Assembly: GCA_964475595.1 (NCBI GenBank)
Contig: CAYYXG010000009.1
Coordinates: forward strand, 9,023-73,022
From: an uncultured Flavobacteriaceae bacterium
GTDB taxonomy: Bacteria; Bacteroidota; Bacteroidia; NS11-12g; UBA955
DNA length: 64,000 bases
Reading direction: 5' to 3'
Both the position numbers and the translations under genes were made by a program. This document shows positions 29,585-34,246 of the stretch, piece after piece (position 1 is the stretch's first letter; every line of letters starts with the position of its first letter). The notes beneath the pieces are model-generated. The model saw only the letters and a program-made list of their open reading frames with translations, did not search any database and had not been told where the DNA came from.

Positions 29585-30151
29585 TTAAGGTCGGTAGTAG
29601 TGCAACTGAAAGAAGTTGGATTTGCTGCCAATGACCGATTCAACAGAAACATTATTTAACCAAACTGGGGCAGGATTTTCGTAGTAGTAGCGAAACGAGC
29701 TCATGGGCCATGCTTGGATATCGTCGGTAAAACCATGTTTAACGGGGTTTCGGTGTATGTAAACGAGGACCCGAAAAAAGTCGGTTTGGTCGCTGATAAT
29801 TCTGCGGCGGAGATTTTTCATAAACATGGAGCCGCGGCGGTTATATTTTTTATTATAGGCCTTGCAATAAGAGTTGAAGAAATTAGAAAATTGCTGGCTG
29901 TAATAACGTTCCTTTTTATCCGCTGGCAGACCTTCAAGGTCTATAAGACCTTGAAGGTCTGCCGGCGATTTGGTACGAATTAAAAAATGGAAATGGTTGG
30001 GCATCAGGCAGTACGCATAGGTATCCGCTACCGGACCTATATATTTCCCATACTGCTGCAAGAAAAATCGGTAATTCTCCGCTTCCTTAAATAAATTGTC
30101 ATGCCCGTTTGCATGGTTGTAAATGTGGTAGAACGTTTCAGGTAAAATCAT
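29585..30151 (-). mobile_element. REP-associated tyrosine transposase (RAYT) / IS200-like Y1 HuH transposase, solitary
   Basis: HuH motif CLMPNHFHFLI and catalytic-Tyr motif LVYIHRNPVKHGF. Start at internal ATG MILPETFYHIYNH. No partner tnpB or inverted repeats seen. Confidence 0.8.
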
Positions 30152-31815: not shown

Positions 31816-33003
31816 ATGATAACCATTGATCAATTTAATTTCAAGGGCGAAAAAGTCCTTATTCGTGTAGATTTCAATGTGCCGCTGAACGCTGATTTCC
31901 AAATTACCGACGATTCACGCATAACAGCAACCCTGCCTACCCTTAATAAAATTCTGGGTGACGGCGGTTCCGTTATTCTGATGAGCCACCTGGGCCGACC
32001 TAAAACCGGACCGGAAGATAAATTCAGCCTGCGACATATCCTTCCGCACCTCGGCCAATTGTTGGGTAAAAACGTAAAATTTGCCACTGACTGCATCGGT
32101 GTTGATGCGACTGAACTGGCTGCAGGATTGGGTGCAGGAGAGGTGTTGCTACTGGAAAACCTCCGTTTTTACAAAGAAGAAGAAAAAGGCGACCGCGATT
32201 TTGCCCAAAAACTAGCCTCGCTGGGATCTTTCTATGTGAACGATGCCTTCGGAACAGCGCATCGTGCTCATGCTAGTACGGCCATTATTGCTGATTTCTT
32301 TCCGGGAAAAAAAGCCTTTGGCTATGTAATGGCACGTGAGGTAGAAAATGCCAATAAGGTGATGAAAGCGCCCCAAAGACCATTTACCGCTATTGTAGGT
32401 GGAGCTAAGGTTTCCGATAAAATCTTAATTGTTGAAAATCTGCTGAATGTGGCCGATCATATCATCATTGGTGGTGGCATGGCATATACGTTCTTTAAGG
32501 CACAGGGTGGTCAAATAGGGAAATCGCTGTGTGAAGATGAGCGTTTGCAAACCTGTATTGAGATTTTGGAAAAAGCAAAAGCCAAAGGAGTGAAAATCCA
32601 TTTGCCTTCTGACTCTGTGATTGCCGATAATTTTGCTGCTGATGCCACTACCCAAAACTGCAGTAGCAATAATATCCCAGATGGCTGGATGGGTCTTGAT
32701 ATTGGAACTTCTGCCTGCAACGATTTTAAGAATGTGCTGCTGAACAGCAAAACCATTTTGTGGAACGGCCCGATGGGTGTATTTGAGATGGATGCTTTTA
32801 GCAACGGCACCAAGACCGTAGCAGAGGCTGTAGCTGAAAGCACGCAAAATGGCGCTTTCAGTTTGATAGGCGGCGGCGACAGTGCAGCAGCCGTTCACAA
32901 GTTCGGTTTCGAGGAAAAGGTGAGTTATGTAAGCACCGGTGGTGGCGCACTGTTGGAATACTTCGAAGGAAAAACATTGCCGGGAATTGCGGCAATAGTT
33001 TAG
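31816..33003 (+). CDS. pgk: phosphoglycerate kinase
   Basis: [18 protein letters not shown], 395 aa. Confidence 0.97.
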
Positions 33004-33059
33004 AGTTAAGAGTTTAGAGTTAGGGGTTAAGAGTTAAAAGTTGATAGTCTACAGTTTGT
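33004..33059. repeat. tandem heptamer microsatellite (AGTTNNG x8)
   Basis: AGTTAAG AGTTTAG AGTTAGG GGTTAAG AGTTAAA AGTTGAT AGTCTAC AGTTTGT, directly after the pgk stop. Confidence 0.8.
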
Positions 33060-33360
33060 CAATGCCTGAATTTAGTTAATAGTATATTAGGTTTATTGGT
33101 TGAATGGTTTAATGGGTTAATTTATCTAACCTGCAATTAACCCCGAAGGGGTGGCATTATTGTAGCCCACAGGGCGTAAAATCCGACCCCAACGGGGTCG
33201 CACATATTCAAATGGTTTTTCGTGTTTTGTTGTCGGGCGGGGCAACCGCAATCAAAATCCATCACCCCAAAACACAATATGCGACCACCTTCGGGGTCGT
33301 GCATTCTATGCGCCGTTCCGGCTAGAGATATTTGACCCCGCTGGGGTCACAAGCACAATG

Positions 33361-33441
33361 CACAATGCAGATATGTGTGCCCATAAATCGTGCGTCGGCA
33401 ATCCCTGCATTTTTCATGGTTGCCGAAGATGCCAACCAAAC
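33361..33441. repeat. 81-bp direct repeat, copy 1
   Basis: CACAATGCAGATATGTGTGCCCATAAATCGTGCGTCGGCAATCCCTGCATTTTTC... Identical to copy 2 except 2 nt. Confidence 0.9.
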
Positions 33442-33512
33442 GACATCGCCATGACCACACTCGGGTCGAGCACAATTCACAATTCACAATTAGCAATGCA
33501 CAATTAGCAATG

Positions 33513-33593
33513 CACAATGCAGATATGTGTGCCCATAAATCGTGCGTCGGCAATCCCTGCATTTTTCGTGGTTACCGAAGATGCCAACCAAAC
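33513..33593. repeat. 81-bp direct repeat, copy 2 (period 152 bp)
   Basis: Same 81-mer with 2 mismatches. Separated from copy 1 by CACAATT/AGCAATG heptamer tandems (33467-33512). Confidence 0.9.
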
Positions 33594-33778
33594 ATCGAAA
33601 AAATGACCACACGACATCGCCATGACCCCAGCGGGGTCAAACATCTGTAGGCCTCGTGGGTGAGGGAATCGACCCCATCGGGGTCGCATATATCCTAATT
33701 ATCCATAGGTGCTCACCAAAAACAAAACAAGGACGGGCAATGCACCAAACCAATAAACCATTTTACCAATAAACCAAA

Positions 33779-34246
33779 CTACAATCCCCGTCTCTCTGCA
33801 TCACTCAGCAAATCACAGTCCTTCAAAAATGCCTTCATGGTGTCCCAAATAGGGTGCTTTTTGTCCAAATGAGACATTATCCATGCCTTGTCCTCTCGGG
33901 TATGGGAGGTTATGCCTAAAATCGCCGGTGCCCGACTCTCAAAACTGAATCGTAAAAAACGAACTTCCAAATTCTGTGGGGCAGTGGACACCGCCTTATT
34001 CAGTATAACGGCTGCTTCTTTCGCCAATGCGAATCGGCTTGCCGGATTCCAACCATGTTTCGCCTGCAGTGCTTTTCCCATTCCATAATAGGCCATTAAA
34101 ACTCCATTGTTCCCATAATTACCTGTCATTTTCACTAACGCATCCGCCTTGGCAGACACCTCTACCGCTTCTATATAGGTAGACCTCACCGAACTGATTT
34201 CTGAAAAACCGGTCAACAGCATCGCACACACGCTCATCCAAAGCAT
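33779..34246 (-). CDS. hypothetical secreted protein
   Basis: 155 aa, N-terminal signal-like segment, no motif recognised. Confidence 0.4.
   Translation of the reverse strand: MLWMSVCAMLLTGFSEISSVRSTYIEAVEVSAKADALVKMTGNYGNNGVLMAYYGMGKALQAKHGWNPASRFALAKEAAVILNKAVSTAPQNLEVRFLRFSFESRAPAILGITSHTREDKAWIMSHLDKKHPIWDTMKAFLKDCDLLSDAERRGL

What the first reader, a model, noticed from the sequence alone, without database searches (positions are those of the whole stretch)
33004..33778. Intergenic repeat nest: REP-like GACCCC-N3-GGGGTC hairpins, two 81-bp direct repeats and heptamer microsatellites downstream of pgk
A 775-bp non-coding stretch contains three distinct repeat classes. (i) An AGTTNNG x8 heptamer array starts 1 nt after the pgk stop. 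(ii) At least six short hairpins with the core [C/T]GACCCC-NNN-GGGGTC[G/A], four perfect and two imperfect, have GCA(C/T)AT-like flanks and alternate in orientation. This is the architecture of REP/BIME elements. (iii) Two near-identical 81-bp direct repeats (2 mismatches, 152-bp period) are separated by CACAATT/AGCAATG heptamer tandems. A RAYT-type Y1 transposase gene lies only about 3 kb away at 29585-30151. REP-RAYT systems are well described in Proteobacteria but poorly so in Bacteroidetes, so this REP family may be new. It is not a CRISPR array: there is no constant repeat/spacer periodicity and no cas genes.
Basis: seen in the sequence. Interest (0 to 1): 0.6.

Follow-up and report, generated by a model that had tools for sequence, protein, structure and literature searches.

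The report
Transposase-linked hairpin repeat nest
The long spacer after the pgk gene is a recently gained cluster of small DNA hairpin cassettes that, in other Bacteroidota and Ignavibacteria genomes, sit directly beside an IS200-like single-strand DNA transposase gene, which is a different gene from the "RAYT" 3 kb away; it also holds ordinary heptamer microsatellites and one local duplication.

Summary
The repeats are real. The 775-nt convergent spacer (33004-33778) holds four perfect and two or three imperfect GACCCC-N3-GGGGTC hairpins, an 86-nt direct repeat (98%, period 152) and 7/8-mer arrays. None of these occurs elsewhere in the 64 kb.

The three classes have separate origins:
- **Hairpins.** They form composite "A-B" doublets: a variable, covarying hairpin plus an ACATNTNTAG tail, about 20 nt of linker, then CGACCCC-N3-GGGGTCG plus CAYATAT. 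The same module occurs across Bacteroidota and Ignavibacteria. It lies next to a ~153-aa IS200-like Y1 transposase (motifs DHIH…WQ…YIxNQKEHH, "subclass 1.2") in 6/6 gene-first loci, against 0/80 pgk-first loci.
- **Nearby RAYT-like gene.** The window has no subclass-1.2 gene. The class-2 RAYT-like gene (29585-30151) is not flanked by modules. A relative with 92% PGK identity keeps that gene but has no modules.
- **Heptamer arrays.** These are a known, widespread kind of microsatellite, and this array differs in length in the relative.
- **86-nt repeat.** This is a local duplication.

Best reading: a gene-less, REPtron/MITE-like cassette cluster, mobilised as single-stranded DNA and then expanded by slippage. 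Mobilisation is inferred. High-copy dispersal was not shown.

The parts
33130..33214 (+). A-B doublet 1. Hairpin A is 33140-33152 with tail GGCATTATTGTAG (33153-33165). A mini-hairpin GCCC-ACA-GGGC follows at 33165-33175. Hairpin B is CGACCCCAACGGGGTCG (33184-33200) with tail CACATAT (33201-33207).
   Evidence: Covariance model R1 scores 64.8 bits, but this copy was in the training set. Sequence.
33270..33357 (-). A-B doublet 2, inverted. Hairpin A is TGACCCCGCTGGGGTCA (33333-33349) with tail CTAGAGATATT (33322-33332, read on the - strand). The mini-hairpin is GCCG-TTC-CGGC (33312-33322). Hairpin B is degenerate (33282-33299). Together with doublet 1 it forms a gene-less A(+)B(+)…B(-)A(-) cassette spanning 33130-33357.
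   Evidence: R1 scores 47.2 bits, E=1e-6, and this copy was not in the training set. Inverted repeats I6 and I12. The same layout flanks the Y1 gene in L002, L006 and L007.
33615..33700 (+). A-B doublet 3, a half cassette. Hairpin A is 33623-33639 with tail AACATCTGTAG (33640-33650). Hairpin B is 33670-33686 with tail CATATAT (33687-33693).
   Evidence: R1 scores 65.9 bits (training member). It forms a 28-nt, 93% inverted repeat with 33322-33349 (I2).
33350..33622 (+). Local tandem duplication. Each unit is a hairpin, then (GCACAAT)n, then the 86-nt core, then CGACATCGCCA. The cores lie at 33356-33441 and 33508-33593. A degenerate hairpin lies at 33452-33469. The second copy carries an extra 33594-33612 segment that includes a half-hairpin duplicate.
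   Evidence: D1, D7. The core has no match elsewhere in the window, in 140 fetched loci or in JGI metagenome contigs. It is not significantly structured (z=-0.24).
32997..33042 (+). Heptamer microsatellite AGTTAAG x6.6. It overlaps the pgk stop codon.
   Evidence: TRF. The homologous array in relative L130 has about 4 copies of AGTTAAC.
33470..33518 (+). Heptamer array CACAATT/AGCAATG x6.9, with a shorter CACAATG x3.3 array at 33348-33369. Both directly follow a hairpin and resemble an expanded B-type tail (GCACAAT…GCAGATAT).
   Evidence: TRF. Sequence. The link to the tail is my inference.
33087..33118 (+). Left arm of the outer inverted repeat, made of 8-mers (GGTTAATG x3.9).
   Evidence: Inverted repeat I1: 32 nt, 84% complementary to 33747-33778. 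TRF. Its role is unexplained.
33747..33778 (+). Right arm of the outer inverted repeat (AAACCAAT x3.9). It abuts the stop codon of the 155-aa ORF.
29585..30151 (-). Class-2 RAYT-like Y1 gene (NHFH…YIHRNP) with an in-frame 47-nt palindrome at 29921-29967. It is listed here because the finding names it, but it is NOT linked to the hairpin nest.

Best explanation
The hairpins are a gene-less cluster of cassettes. They belong to a conserved hairpin-module family whose full form sits immediately beside, or on both sides of, a ~153-aa IS200-like Y1 (HUH) transposase gene of 'subclass 1.2' in Bacteroidota and Ignavibacteria.

Each module is a string of hairpins spaced about 51 nt apart:
- A/C units: the stem is free to vary but always pairs, and the tail is ACATNTTTATAG.
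- B unit: the stem CGACCCC/GGGGTCG is conserved in sequence, and the tail is CAYATAT.

Proposed mechanism, with status of each step:
- The units fold as hairpins in single-stranded DNA. Folding is predicted computationally.
- The Y1 enzyme binds them. This is inferred.
- The enzyme cuts and rejoins near the conserved tails, so gene-less cassettes can be moved in trans to new intergenic sites. This is inferred by analogy with IS608/ISDra2 TnpA and E. coli TnpA-REP.
- The cassettes arrived here after the split from a relative with 92% identical PGK. This is shown.
- Hairpin-promoted slippage or unequal exchange then changed unit numbers and produced the 152-nt duplication. Such change is shown elsewhere as a clean 51-nt unit indel between orthologous loci, and is inferred here.
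- The heptamer arrays are an independent microsatellite phenomenon.
For: **The module is real and conserved.** The 24-mer CGACCCCNNNGGGGTCGCAYATAT was found in 33 stretches from about 25 different Bacteroidota/Ignavibacteria MAGs. By my arithmetic about 2 are expected by chance in 596 Gb. The surrounding context is shared across these hits.

**Hairpin A covaries.** Six of 7 pairs show double-sided changes, and 0/500 shuffles reach the observed score.

**Link to the Y1 gene.**
- Six motif-first loci carry a Y1_Tnp gene (Pfam E=2e-27; NCBIfam IS200 65-73 bits, cutoff 55; nearest structures ISDra2 and IS608 TnpA). Most of these genes have modules directly beside them, and in L002, L006 and L007 the layout is A(+)B(+) gene B(-)A(-).
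- In the reverse test, 6/6 independent gene-first loci have modules within about 10-100 nt of the gene.
- By contrast there are 0 modules in 80 pgk-first loci (430,691 nt) and no GC-rich unit by a model-free regex.
- A seventh, more diverged gene (Bernardetia, 60% identity) has four hairpins at the same 51-56 nt spacing but with a different stem, GTTGC/GCAAC. This suggests co-variation of protein and hairpin.

**Spread without the gene.**
- No subclass-1.2 gene was found in the other 27 of the 33 motif-first stretches.
- At least 9 copies of a ~330-nt MITE-like element with B-unit termini occur in one MAG.

**Recent gain here.** Eight syntenic relatives have 8-214-nt spacers in place of 775 nt. 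L130 shares the heptamer array and about 70 nt after it, but has no module.

**Unit dynamics.** There is a 51-nt one-unit indel between L014 and L015.

**Folding.** Canonical modules fold as single-stranded DNA with z = -4.3 to -6.2.
Against: - No subclass-1.2 gene lies within the 64-kb window. Whether the source genome has one is unknown.
- No excision or insertion junction, target duplication or cleavage site has been defined. Mobilisation is an inference.
- Copy number looks low and clustered, unlike classical REPs.
- The flanking arrangement is inverted, unlike IS200/IS605 ends.
- The only survey of this protein class reports it as lacking terminal hairpins and IS properties (PMC6006769).
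- In three gene-first loci the module lies only downstream of the gene, so it could also be a 3' regulatory element of that gene.
- The gene-first proteins were top hits of a profile built from motif-first proteins, so the 6/6 result holds for that subfamily only.
Confidence: 0.6

Rival explanations
1. First reader's model. The hairpins are REP/BIME elements of the class-2 RAYT-like gene at 29585-30151, which disperses them genome-wide.
For: The gene is a genuine RAYT relative. It hits NCBIfam REP_Tyr_transpos at E=2.8e-15 and JGI names its homologues RayT. It sits in a conserved chromosomal position, as domesticated RAYTs do. It lies 3 kb from the nest.
Against: - Its flanks (6 nt on one side, an AT-rich promoter region on the other) carry no hairpins.
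- Its orthologue in L130 is present without any module in 20.6 kb, and no module occurs in L130-L134.
- No homologue of it lies next to modules in 33 motif-first loci.
- Its own internal palindrome (AGACCTTCAAGGTCT…) is a different sequence and is unique in the window.
Confidence: 0.05
2. The modules act at the RNA level, as a structured 3'UTR, terminator, processing element or small RNA. The cluster would then be a set of duplicated RNA structures and not mobile DNA.
For: - Hairpin A shows compensatory changes.
- The modules lie at gene ends: a convergent spacer here, and directly after the Y1 stop codon in L039, L042 and L046.
- The folds are strong.
Against: - Units occur in both orientations relative to neighbouring genes.
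- The B unit flips orientation between loci.
- There is no U-tract.
- No Rfam family matches, the best hit being Acido-Lenti-1 at 19.6 bits against a threshold of 37.
- Tandem arrays of up to 2.3 kb exist.
- There is a specific link to an HUH single-strand DNA enzyme.
- Covariation is equally expected for DNA hairpins.
Confidence: 0.12
3. The nest is an inert relic. A single gene-bearing Y1 cassette once inserted here, the gene was deleted, and everything else arose by local duplication. There would be no trans-mobilisation and no current activity.
For: - The A(+)B(+)…B(-)A(-) layout of 33130-33357 is exactly the gene-flanking layout.
- There is clear local duplication.
- Modules are confined to one site in 64 kb.
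Against: - No trace of Y1 coding sequence remains (tblastn).
- Doublets 1 and 3 differ in stem, loop and linker, so they are not simple recent copies.
- Gene-less clusters are common in other genomes.
- A B-unit MITE has multiplied in one MAG.
Confidence: 0.18
4. The whole stretch 33087-33778 is one composite MITE bounded by the 32-nt inverted 8-mer arrays, which merely carries hairpins inside.
For: There is a 32-nt, 84% inverted repeat exactly at the edges, and the right arm abuts the neighbouring stop codon. Relatives have very short spacers.
Against: - No second copy of these arms exists in any of 129 loci.
- There is no target-site duplication.
- The arms are low-complexity tandem 8-mers.
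- The start of the left arm may be ancestral, since L130 has TAGGTTTTACC at that position.
Confidence: 0.05

Closest known systems
REP/BIME elements with their RAYT (TnpA-REP) gene, 'REPtrons' (E. coli, Pseudomonas; Nunvar 2010, Ton-Hoang 2012, Bertels & Rainey 2011)
   Same: Both have short GC-rich palindromic units clustered in intergenic, often convergent, spacers. In some genomes a Y1 HUH gene is flanked by inverted units. Gene-less units occur elsewhere, and units come in composite arrays.
   Different: - The associated protein is class 1 (IS200-like, Y…Q..HH), not class 2 RAYT (Y…NP).
- There is no GTAG/CGTC tag at the hairpin foot. The conserved TAG lies 8-10 nt 3' of the stem.
- There are two unit types with a fixed spacing of about 51 nt.
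- The B stem is conserved across phyla and is not species-specific.
- The copy number seen is low and clustered.
IS200/IS605 insertion sequences (IS608, ISDra2) and their subterminal hairpins
   Same: The partner protein passes the NCBIfam IS200 model, and its nearest solved structures are ISDra2 and IS608 TnpA. Both have hairpins plus a short conserved sequence about 10 nt away, as at the IS608 right end.
   Different: - The ends here are in inverted, not same-strand, arrangement.
- There are several hairpins per side.
- The gene often abuts the upstream gene with no left end at all.
- The gene is low copy.
- The hairpin cassettes exist without the gene.
TnpA-Y1 'subclass 1.2' of Quentin et al. 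2018 (PMC6006769)
   Same: The motifs DH[IV]H, WQ and Y---Q--HH match, as do the ~150-aa length, the Bacteroidetes distribution and the low copy number.
   Different: That survey lists this subclass as having no REP and generally no terminal secondary structures. Here every examined gene of this subfamily has hairpin modules beside it.
MITEs / REPINs
   Same: Both are non-autonomous and built from inverted terminal hairpin units. The A(+)B(+)…B(-)A(-) cassette (228 nt) and the 330-nt CAMQYL01 element look like this.
   Different: No target-site duplication or defined termini were found in the window, and only one site is present in 64 kb.
Long simple-sequence heptanucleotide repeats (Mrazek 2007; TAACTGA repeats, MacGregor 2015, PMC4679880)
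   Same: Both are intergenic period-7 arrays next to start or stop codons in Bacteroidetes, and both vary in length between relatives.
   Different: The unit here is AGTTAAG (CTTAACT on the other strand), not TAACTGA. These arrays are not part of the hairpin system.

Membership tests
REP/BIME-RAYT system | Short (20-40 nt) imperfect palindromic unit in intergenic DNA | tested here: met
   The units are 17-nt hairpins with 7-13-nt tails.
REP/BIME-RAYT system | High copy number dispersed over the genome (typically more than 100) | tested here: inconclusive
   Units occur at only one site in 64 kb. None occur in 430 kb of relatives. The exact 24-mer is mostly present once per genome. The source genome was not available.
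REP/BIME-RAYT system | Conserved GTAG or CGTC tetranucleotide directly at the hairpin foot | tested here: not met
   The conserved [AG]TAG lies 8-10 nt 3' of the stem, and the B unit ends in CAYATAT.
REP/BIME-RAYT system | A class-2 RAYT gene (HUH, Y…NP) flanked by the same units in inverted orientation | tested here: not met
   The window's class-2 gene has no units on its flanks, and L130-L134 likewise have none. The flanked gene elsewhere is class 1.
IS200/IS605 family | Encodes a Y1 HUH TnpA that passes the family model | tested here: met
   This was met in related loci only: NF033573 scores 65-73 bits against a cutoff of 55, and Pfam Y1_Tnp gives E=2e-27. No such gene is in the window.
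IS200/IS605 family | Left and right subterminal hairpins recognised on the same strand, with no inverted repeats | tested here: not met
   The modules are inverted around the gene (L002, L006, L007, L139) or lie on one side only (L039, L042, L046).
IS200/IS605 family | Several near-identical gene-bearing copies per genome | not testable with these tools
   Only fragments of genomes could be fetched. PMC6006769 reports low copy number for subclass 1.2.
TnpA-Y1 subclass 1.2 (protein partner) | Motifs DH[IV]H, WQ and Y---Q--HH, length about 150 aa | tested here: met
   Alignment A2 has DHIH, WQ and YIxxQKEHH invariant, with lengths of 152-155 aa.
MITE | Terminal inverted repeats plus target-site duplication, with multiple copies | tested here: inconclusive
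   Inverted doublets are present. No target-site duplication and no second copy were found in the window. A clear multi-copy example exists only in MAG CAMQYL01.
CRISPR array | Constant repeat with unique spacers of regular length, and cas genes | tested here: not met
   The 'spacers' are duplicated or irregular, no cas genes are present, and no Rfam CRISPR hit occurs in the window.
Any Rfam RNA family | Score at or above the gathering threshold | tested here: not met
   Only a tRNA in the window passes. The best hit in the region is Acido-Lenti-1 at 19.6 bits against 37.

The most novel reading that the evidence does not exclude
The A-B-C hairpin module plus the subclass-1.2 Y1 protein is an unrecognised partnership spanning two phyla (Bacteroidota and Ignavibacteria/Chlorobi group). 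On this reading a conserved, possibly domesticated HUH enzyme works on a conserved DNA hairpin, CGACCCC/GGGGTCG, and the system has a cellular role beyond selfish spread. One hint is that 3 of 7 gene-first copies sit inside restriction-modification operons. The pgk nest would be one of its dispersed substrate sites.
Probability: 0.2. Interest if true: 0.75.

Novelty: new variant of a known kind. Interest (0 to 1): 0.5.

Why it matters
Y1 (HUH) transposases and their hairpin substrates are the model for single-strand DNA transposition and for how REPs shape bacterial genomes. The 'subclass 1.2' branch is very large: at least 8000 protein clusters at 90% identity were returned in my search. It has been described as having neither IS ends nor REPs, so its substrate and function are unknown. 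The module found here gives a concrete, conserved candidate substrate with two unit types, fixed spacing and conserved tails. That substrate can be tested directly by binding and cleavage assays. It also gives a covariance model for census work in Bacteroidota. For annotation, it shows that a nearby 'RayT' label is not evidence that local palindromes belong to that gene.

Tried and rejected
- **Rfam.** Gathering and permissive scans gave nothing usable.
- **Coding potential.** ORFs in the spacer have no Pfam hit. No Y1 remnant was found by tblastn.
- **86-nt core as a dispersed repeat.** There is no match in the window, in the loci, or in JGI metagenome contigs. It has no significant fold.
- **Class-2 RAYT as partner.** Rejected.
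- **Internal palindrome of that gene as the REP of the nest.** It is a different sequence and is unique in the window and absent from the loci fetched at that point.
- **Heptamer arrays as regular companions of modules.** They are not. Only occasional short arrays lie near modules, while period-7 arrays are common in module-free pgk loci.
- **8-mer arms as a recurring terminus.** No other copy exists.
- **Finding the source genome.** The exact proteins occur only on short Logan contigs (SRR14492188, SRR14492199), which break inside the nest at 33303 and 33538. Genome-wide counting in the source was therefore impossible.
- **Phage or plasmid carriage of the Y1 gene.** There was one megaplasmid hit and no phage hit.
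- **Defence-system models (PADLOC).** No meaningful hit.
- **Pairing of the A tail with the C tail as a conserved helix.** It is predicted in canonical modules but not in the window's copies, and I did not test it for covariation.
Full report
**1. Observation**

The stretch 33004-33778 is the spacer between convergent pgk (31816-33003, Pfam PGK E=2e-157) and a 155-aa ORF with no family hit (33779-34246, minus strand). A CorA gene lies behind that ORF.

GACCCCNNNGGGGTC occurs four times, at 33185, 33334, 33624 and 33671, and nowhere else in the 64 kb. Only 0.15 are expected, and 0 of 100 shuffles reach four. Two degenerate copies (33282-33299, 33452-33469) and a 5-bp version (33140-33152) complete the set.

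The direct repeat is 86 nt long, 98% identical, with a period of 152 (33356-33441 and 33508-33593).

Tandem Repeats Finder finds short-period arrays only in this spacer within the whole window:
- AGTTAAG x6.6 at 32997-33042, overlapping the pgk stop codon.
- CACAATT/AGCAATG x6.9 at 33470-33518.
- Two 8-mer arrays that are reverse complements of each other, sitting at the two edges. They form a 32-nt inverted repeat with 84% complementarity.

Rfam finds only a tRNA in the window. The observation therefore stands, with small corrections to counts and orientation.

**2. What the hairpins are**

I scanned one genome per species for the 24-mer CGACCCCNNNGGGGTCGCAYATAT, which is the form of two window copies. 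It returned 33 stretches. By my own arithmetic about 2 are expected by chance. Nearly all come from different Bacteroidota and Ignavibacteria MAGs.

The flanks showed that the hairpin is part of a larger conserved module:
- An upstream hairpin 'A'. Its stem sequence varies but always pairs, and it is followed by (A/C)ACATNTTTATAG.
- About 20 nt of linker.
- The 'B' hairpin, with the tail CAYATAT.
- Often TTCTATAAACAT plus a third hairpin 'C' in inverted orientation.

Hairpin centres are about 51 nt apart.

In an alignment of 24 A-B doublets, six of the seven A-stem pairs show changes on both sides. No shuffle out of 500 reaches the observed covariation. The B stem is invariant there by construction.

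A covariance model of the doublet (R1) was run over the window with filters off. It finds exactly three copies:
- 33130-33214 (+).
- 33615-33700 (+).
- 33270-33357 (-), an independent match that was not used in training (47.2 bits, E=1e-6).

The first and third of these listed doublets (33130-33214 and 33270-33357) make an inverted A(+)B(+)…B(-)A(-) cassette. The copy at 33615-33700 is a half cassette. A model-free scan for a hairpin plus tail also finds units only in this spacer.

**3. The partner gene**

Six of the 33 motif-first loci carry a ~153-aa ORF, and in most of them modules lie directly beside it. In the Ignavibacteria loci (L002, L006, L007) the order is A(+)B(+), gene, B(-)A(-).

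The protein has these properties:
- It is a Y1 HUH transposase: Pfam Y1_Tnp E=2e-27, and NCBIfam IS200/IS605 65-73 bits against a cutoff of 55.
- Its nearest solved structures are ISDra2 and IS608 TnpA.
- Its motifs DHIH, WQ and YIxxQKEHH match 'subclass 1.2' of Quentin et al. 2018. That survey describes the subclass as low-copy, found in Cyanobacteria and Bacteroidetes, generally without terminal hairpins, and with no REP (PMC6006769).
- Members are 54-84% identical between phyla.

They are annotated as 'IS200/IS605 family transposase' or 'RayT'.

As a reverse, gene-first test I fetched contigs for six such proteins chosen only for long contigs. All six have modules within about 10-100 nt of the gene.

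In the Bacteroidota examples a full A-B-C module starts right after the stop codon, and nothing lies upstream. In the Chlorobi/Ignavibacteria example modules lie on both sides.

A seventh, more diverged gene on a Bernardetia megaplasmid (60% identity) is preceded by four hairpins at 51-56-nt spacing. They have the same tails but a different stem, GTTGC/GCAAC, and none occurs elsewhere in 40 kb. This looks like co-variation of protein and hairpin.

The controls were:
- 80 pgk-first loci from related bacteria (430,691 nt) contain no R1 hit and no GC-rich unit by regex.
- The five class-2 RAYT-first contigs L130-L134, which carry two close orthologues of the window's gene, contain none.

**4. The nearby 'RAYT'**

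The ORF 29585-30151 is a distant RAYT relative: NF047646 at 56.5 bits, below the cutoff of 80, and 4er8 at E=0.006. Its motifs are NHFH…YIHRNP. [quoted passage not shown]

Its flanks hold no hairpin units. In relative L130 (PGK 92% identical, this protein 78% identical) it sits in the same place, in the order DCD, RAYT-like, GlyRS, PGK. There is no module in 20.6 kb of that contig. It is therefore a stable chromosomal gene that is not connected with the nest. The window has no subclass-1.2 gene.

**5. History of this spacer**

Eight syntenic relatives keep the order aaRS, pgk, convergent ORF155 homologue, corA. Their spacers are only 8-214 nt.

L130 shares the heptamer array, with about 4 copies of AGTTAAC against 6.6 of AGTTAAG. 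It also shares the next ~70 nt and then diverges. The hairpin nest is thus a recent, lineage-specific gain, and the heptamer array is an older, length-variable microsatellite.

Short-read contigs of the same organism break at 33303 and 33538, inside the nest. The local repeats explain this.

**6. The other repeat classes**

*Heptamer arrays.* Among non-multiples of three, period-7 and period-14 arrays are strongly over-represented in the module-free pgk loci: 16 and 17 arrays, against 2-6 for periods 6, 8, 10, 11 and 13. Some abut pgk itself, such as GGGTGAC x8.7 in L056 and AATGATT x6 in L111. Such heptanucleotide repeats are a described class (Mrazek 2007, as cited in PMC4679880; TAACTGA repeats in Bacteroidetes).

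*The 86-nt core.* It has no match anywhere I could search and no significant fold. Each copy is preceded by a hairpin plus (GCACAAT)n-GCAGATAT, which resembles an expanded B tail. The second copy carries a half-hairpin duplicate. Both features point to slippage around hairpins, which is my inference.

*Unit-number change elsewhere.* Orthologous loci L014 and L015 differ by exactly one 51-nt unit. A Saprospiraceae MAG has a 2.3-kb array with the Y1 gene inside it.

**7. Mechanism**

*Shown:*
- The conserved two-type hairpin module exists.
- Hairpin A covaries.
- The module is tightly adjacent to the subclass-1.2 Y1 gene.
- Gene-less copies exist, including a 330-nt MITE-like element with B-unit termini present at least 9 times in one MAG.
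- The nest was gained recently here.

*Predicted:*
- Canonical modules fold as single-stranded DNA into hairpin A, a stem formed by the two tails that encloses hairpin B, and hairpin C (z = -4.3 to -6.2).

*Inferred from the established biochemistry of IS608/ISDra2 TnpA and E. coli TnpA-REP:*
- The Y1 enzyme binds these hairpins on single-stranded DNA.
- It cleaves near the conserved tails.
- It moves gene-less cassettes in trans.

*Arguing for a DNA-level role over an RNA-level one:*
- Units occur in both orientations relative to transcription.
- The B unit flips between loci.

*Arguing for caution:*
- No junctions or cleavage sites have been defined.
- Copy number is low.
- The ends are inverted, unlike IS200/IS605.
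- No partner gene is present in the window.

**8. Comparison, novelty and verdict**

The nest works like a REPtron/BIME or a MITE. It fails REP membership on two counts, the GTAG/CGTC tag and the class of the partner protein. It fails IS200/IS605 membership on end geometry.

In the searchable literature I found no description of hairpin modules associated with subclass 1.2. The main survey reports their absence.

I rate it a new variant of a known kind, of moderate interest. The window itself holds only a gene-less cluster, but it led to a testable substrate for a large uncharacterised Y1 branch.

Noticed in passing
window 29921-29967 (inside the ORF 29585-30151, minus strand); L130 10185-10231: The class-2 RAYT-like gene contains an in-frame 47-nt perfect-stem palindrome (DNA fold -24.8 kcal/mol, z=-10.5) between its HUH and Tyr motifs. 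The orthologue in L130 has it at the same place, with compensatory changes in the outer stem (CTGGC/GCCGG becomes TACCC/GGGTG). The palindrome itself is therefore maintained inside coding sequence. It resembles the 'REP inserted in tnpA-REP' trait reported for subclass 2.4.
   Followed up: partly
L039 3001-3465, L042 3001-3462, L135 2001-2462: Three of seven gene-first subclass-1.2 Y1 genes sit inside restriction-modification operons: HsdR-BroN-Y1-HsdM-HsdS, ResIII-Y1-Mod, and MTase-Y1-HsdS. They are co-oriented, the start codon lies 0-5 nt after the upstream gene, and the hairpin module lies between Y1 and the next R-M gene. There is no PADLOC hit. The cause, whether an insertion preference or a functional link, is unknown.
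   Followed up: partly
L050-L129 (e.g. L056 4177-4237, L111 2308-2349, L112 2929-2989): Period-7 and period-14 tandem arrays are strongly over-represented in intergenic DNA of these pgk-carrying Bacteroidota contigs, and several abut the pgk start or stop. The units differ between lineages (GGGTGAC, AATGATT, TCTAACG). Because 7 is not a multiple of 3, units containing a stop triplet put stops in all three frames.
   Followed up: partly
L010, L012, L016, L019, L022-L024, L026 (MAG CAMQYL01, Bacteroidales): A ~330-nt MITE-like element is present at least 9 times. Its ~45-nt inverted termini are each a hairpin plus a (G/A)CATAT(A)TTAGGC(C)ATGGTCATACAA tail. The left hairpin is the B unit CGACCCCAGCGGGGTCG.
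   Followed up: partly
window 33087-33118 and 33747-33778: Two tandem 8-mer arrays (GGTTAATG and AAACCAAT) form a 32-nt, 84% inverted repeat exactly bracketing the hairpin nest. No other copy occurs in any fetched locus. Their role is unexplained.
   Followed up: partly
L014 5180-5709 versus L015 3706-4240: Orthologous loci about 95% identical differ by a clean 51-nt indel, which equals one hairpin unit. The break runs from inside one hairpin to the same position in the next. This shows that module arrays change by whole units.
   Followed up: yes
L142 19796-19968 (Bernardetia sp. megaplasmid NZ_CP147018.1): A diverged subclass-1.2 gene (DHTH, YVLNQPEHH) is preceded by four GTTGC-N3-GCAAC hairpins at 51-56-nt spacing with the same tail motifs. 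The stem sequence differs from GACCCC, which suggests that protein and hairpin co-evolve.
   Followed up: partly
window 33165-33175, 33312-33322, about 33651-33665; L003 135-146: The window's doublets carry an extra mini-hairpin in the A-B linker (GCCC-ACA-GGGC; GCCG-TTC-CGGC). Among the aligned doublets I saw this only in the Flavobacteriales MAG locus L003 (GCCC-GCCA-GGGC). Other lineages have A-rich linkers.
   Followed up: no
window 33139-33174 (minus strand): There is a weak sub-threshold Rfam match to Acido-Lenti-1 RNA (19.6 bits against a gathering score of 37, E=0.066) over hairpin A plus its tail. It may only reflect a similar hairpin-plus-tag shape.
   Followed up: no
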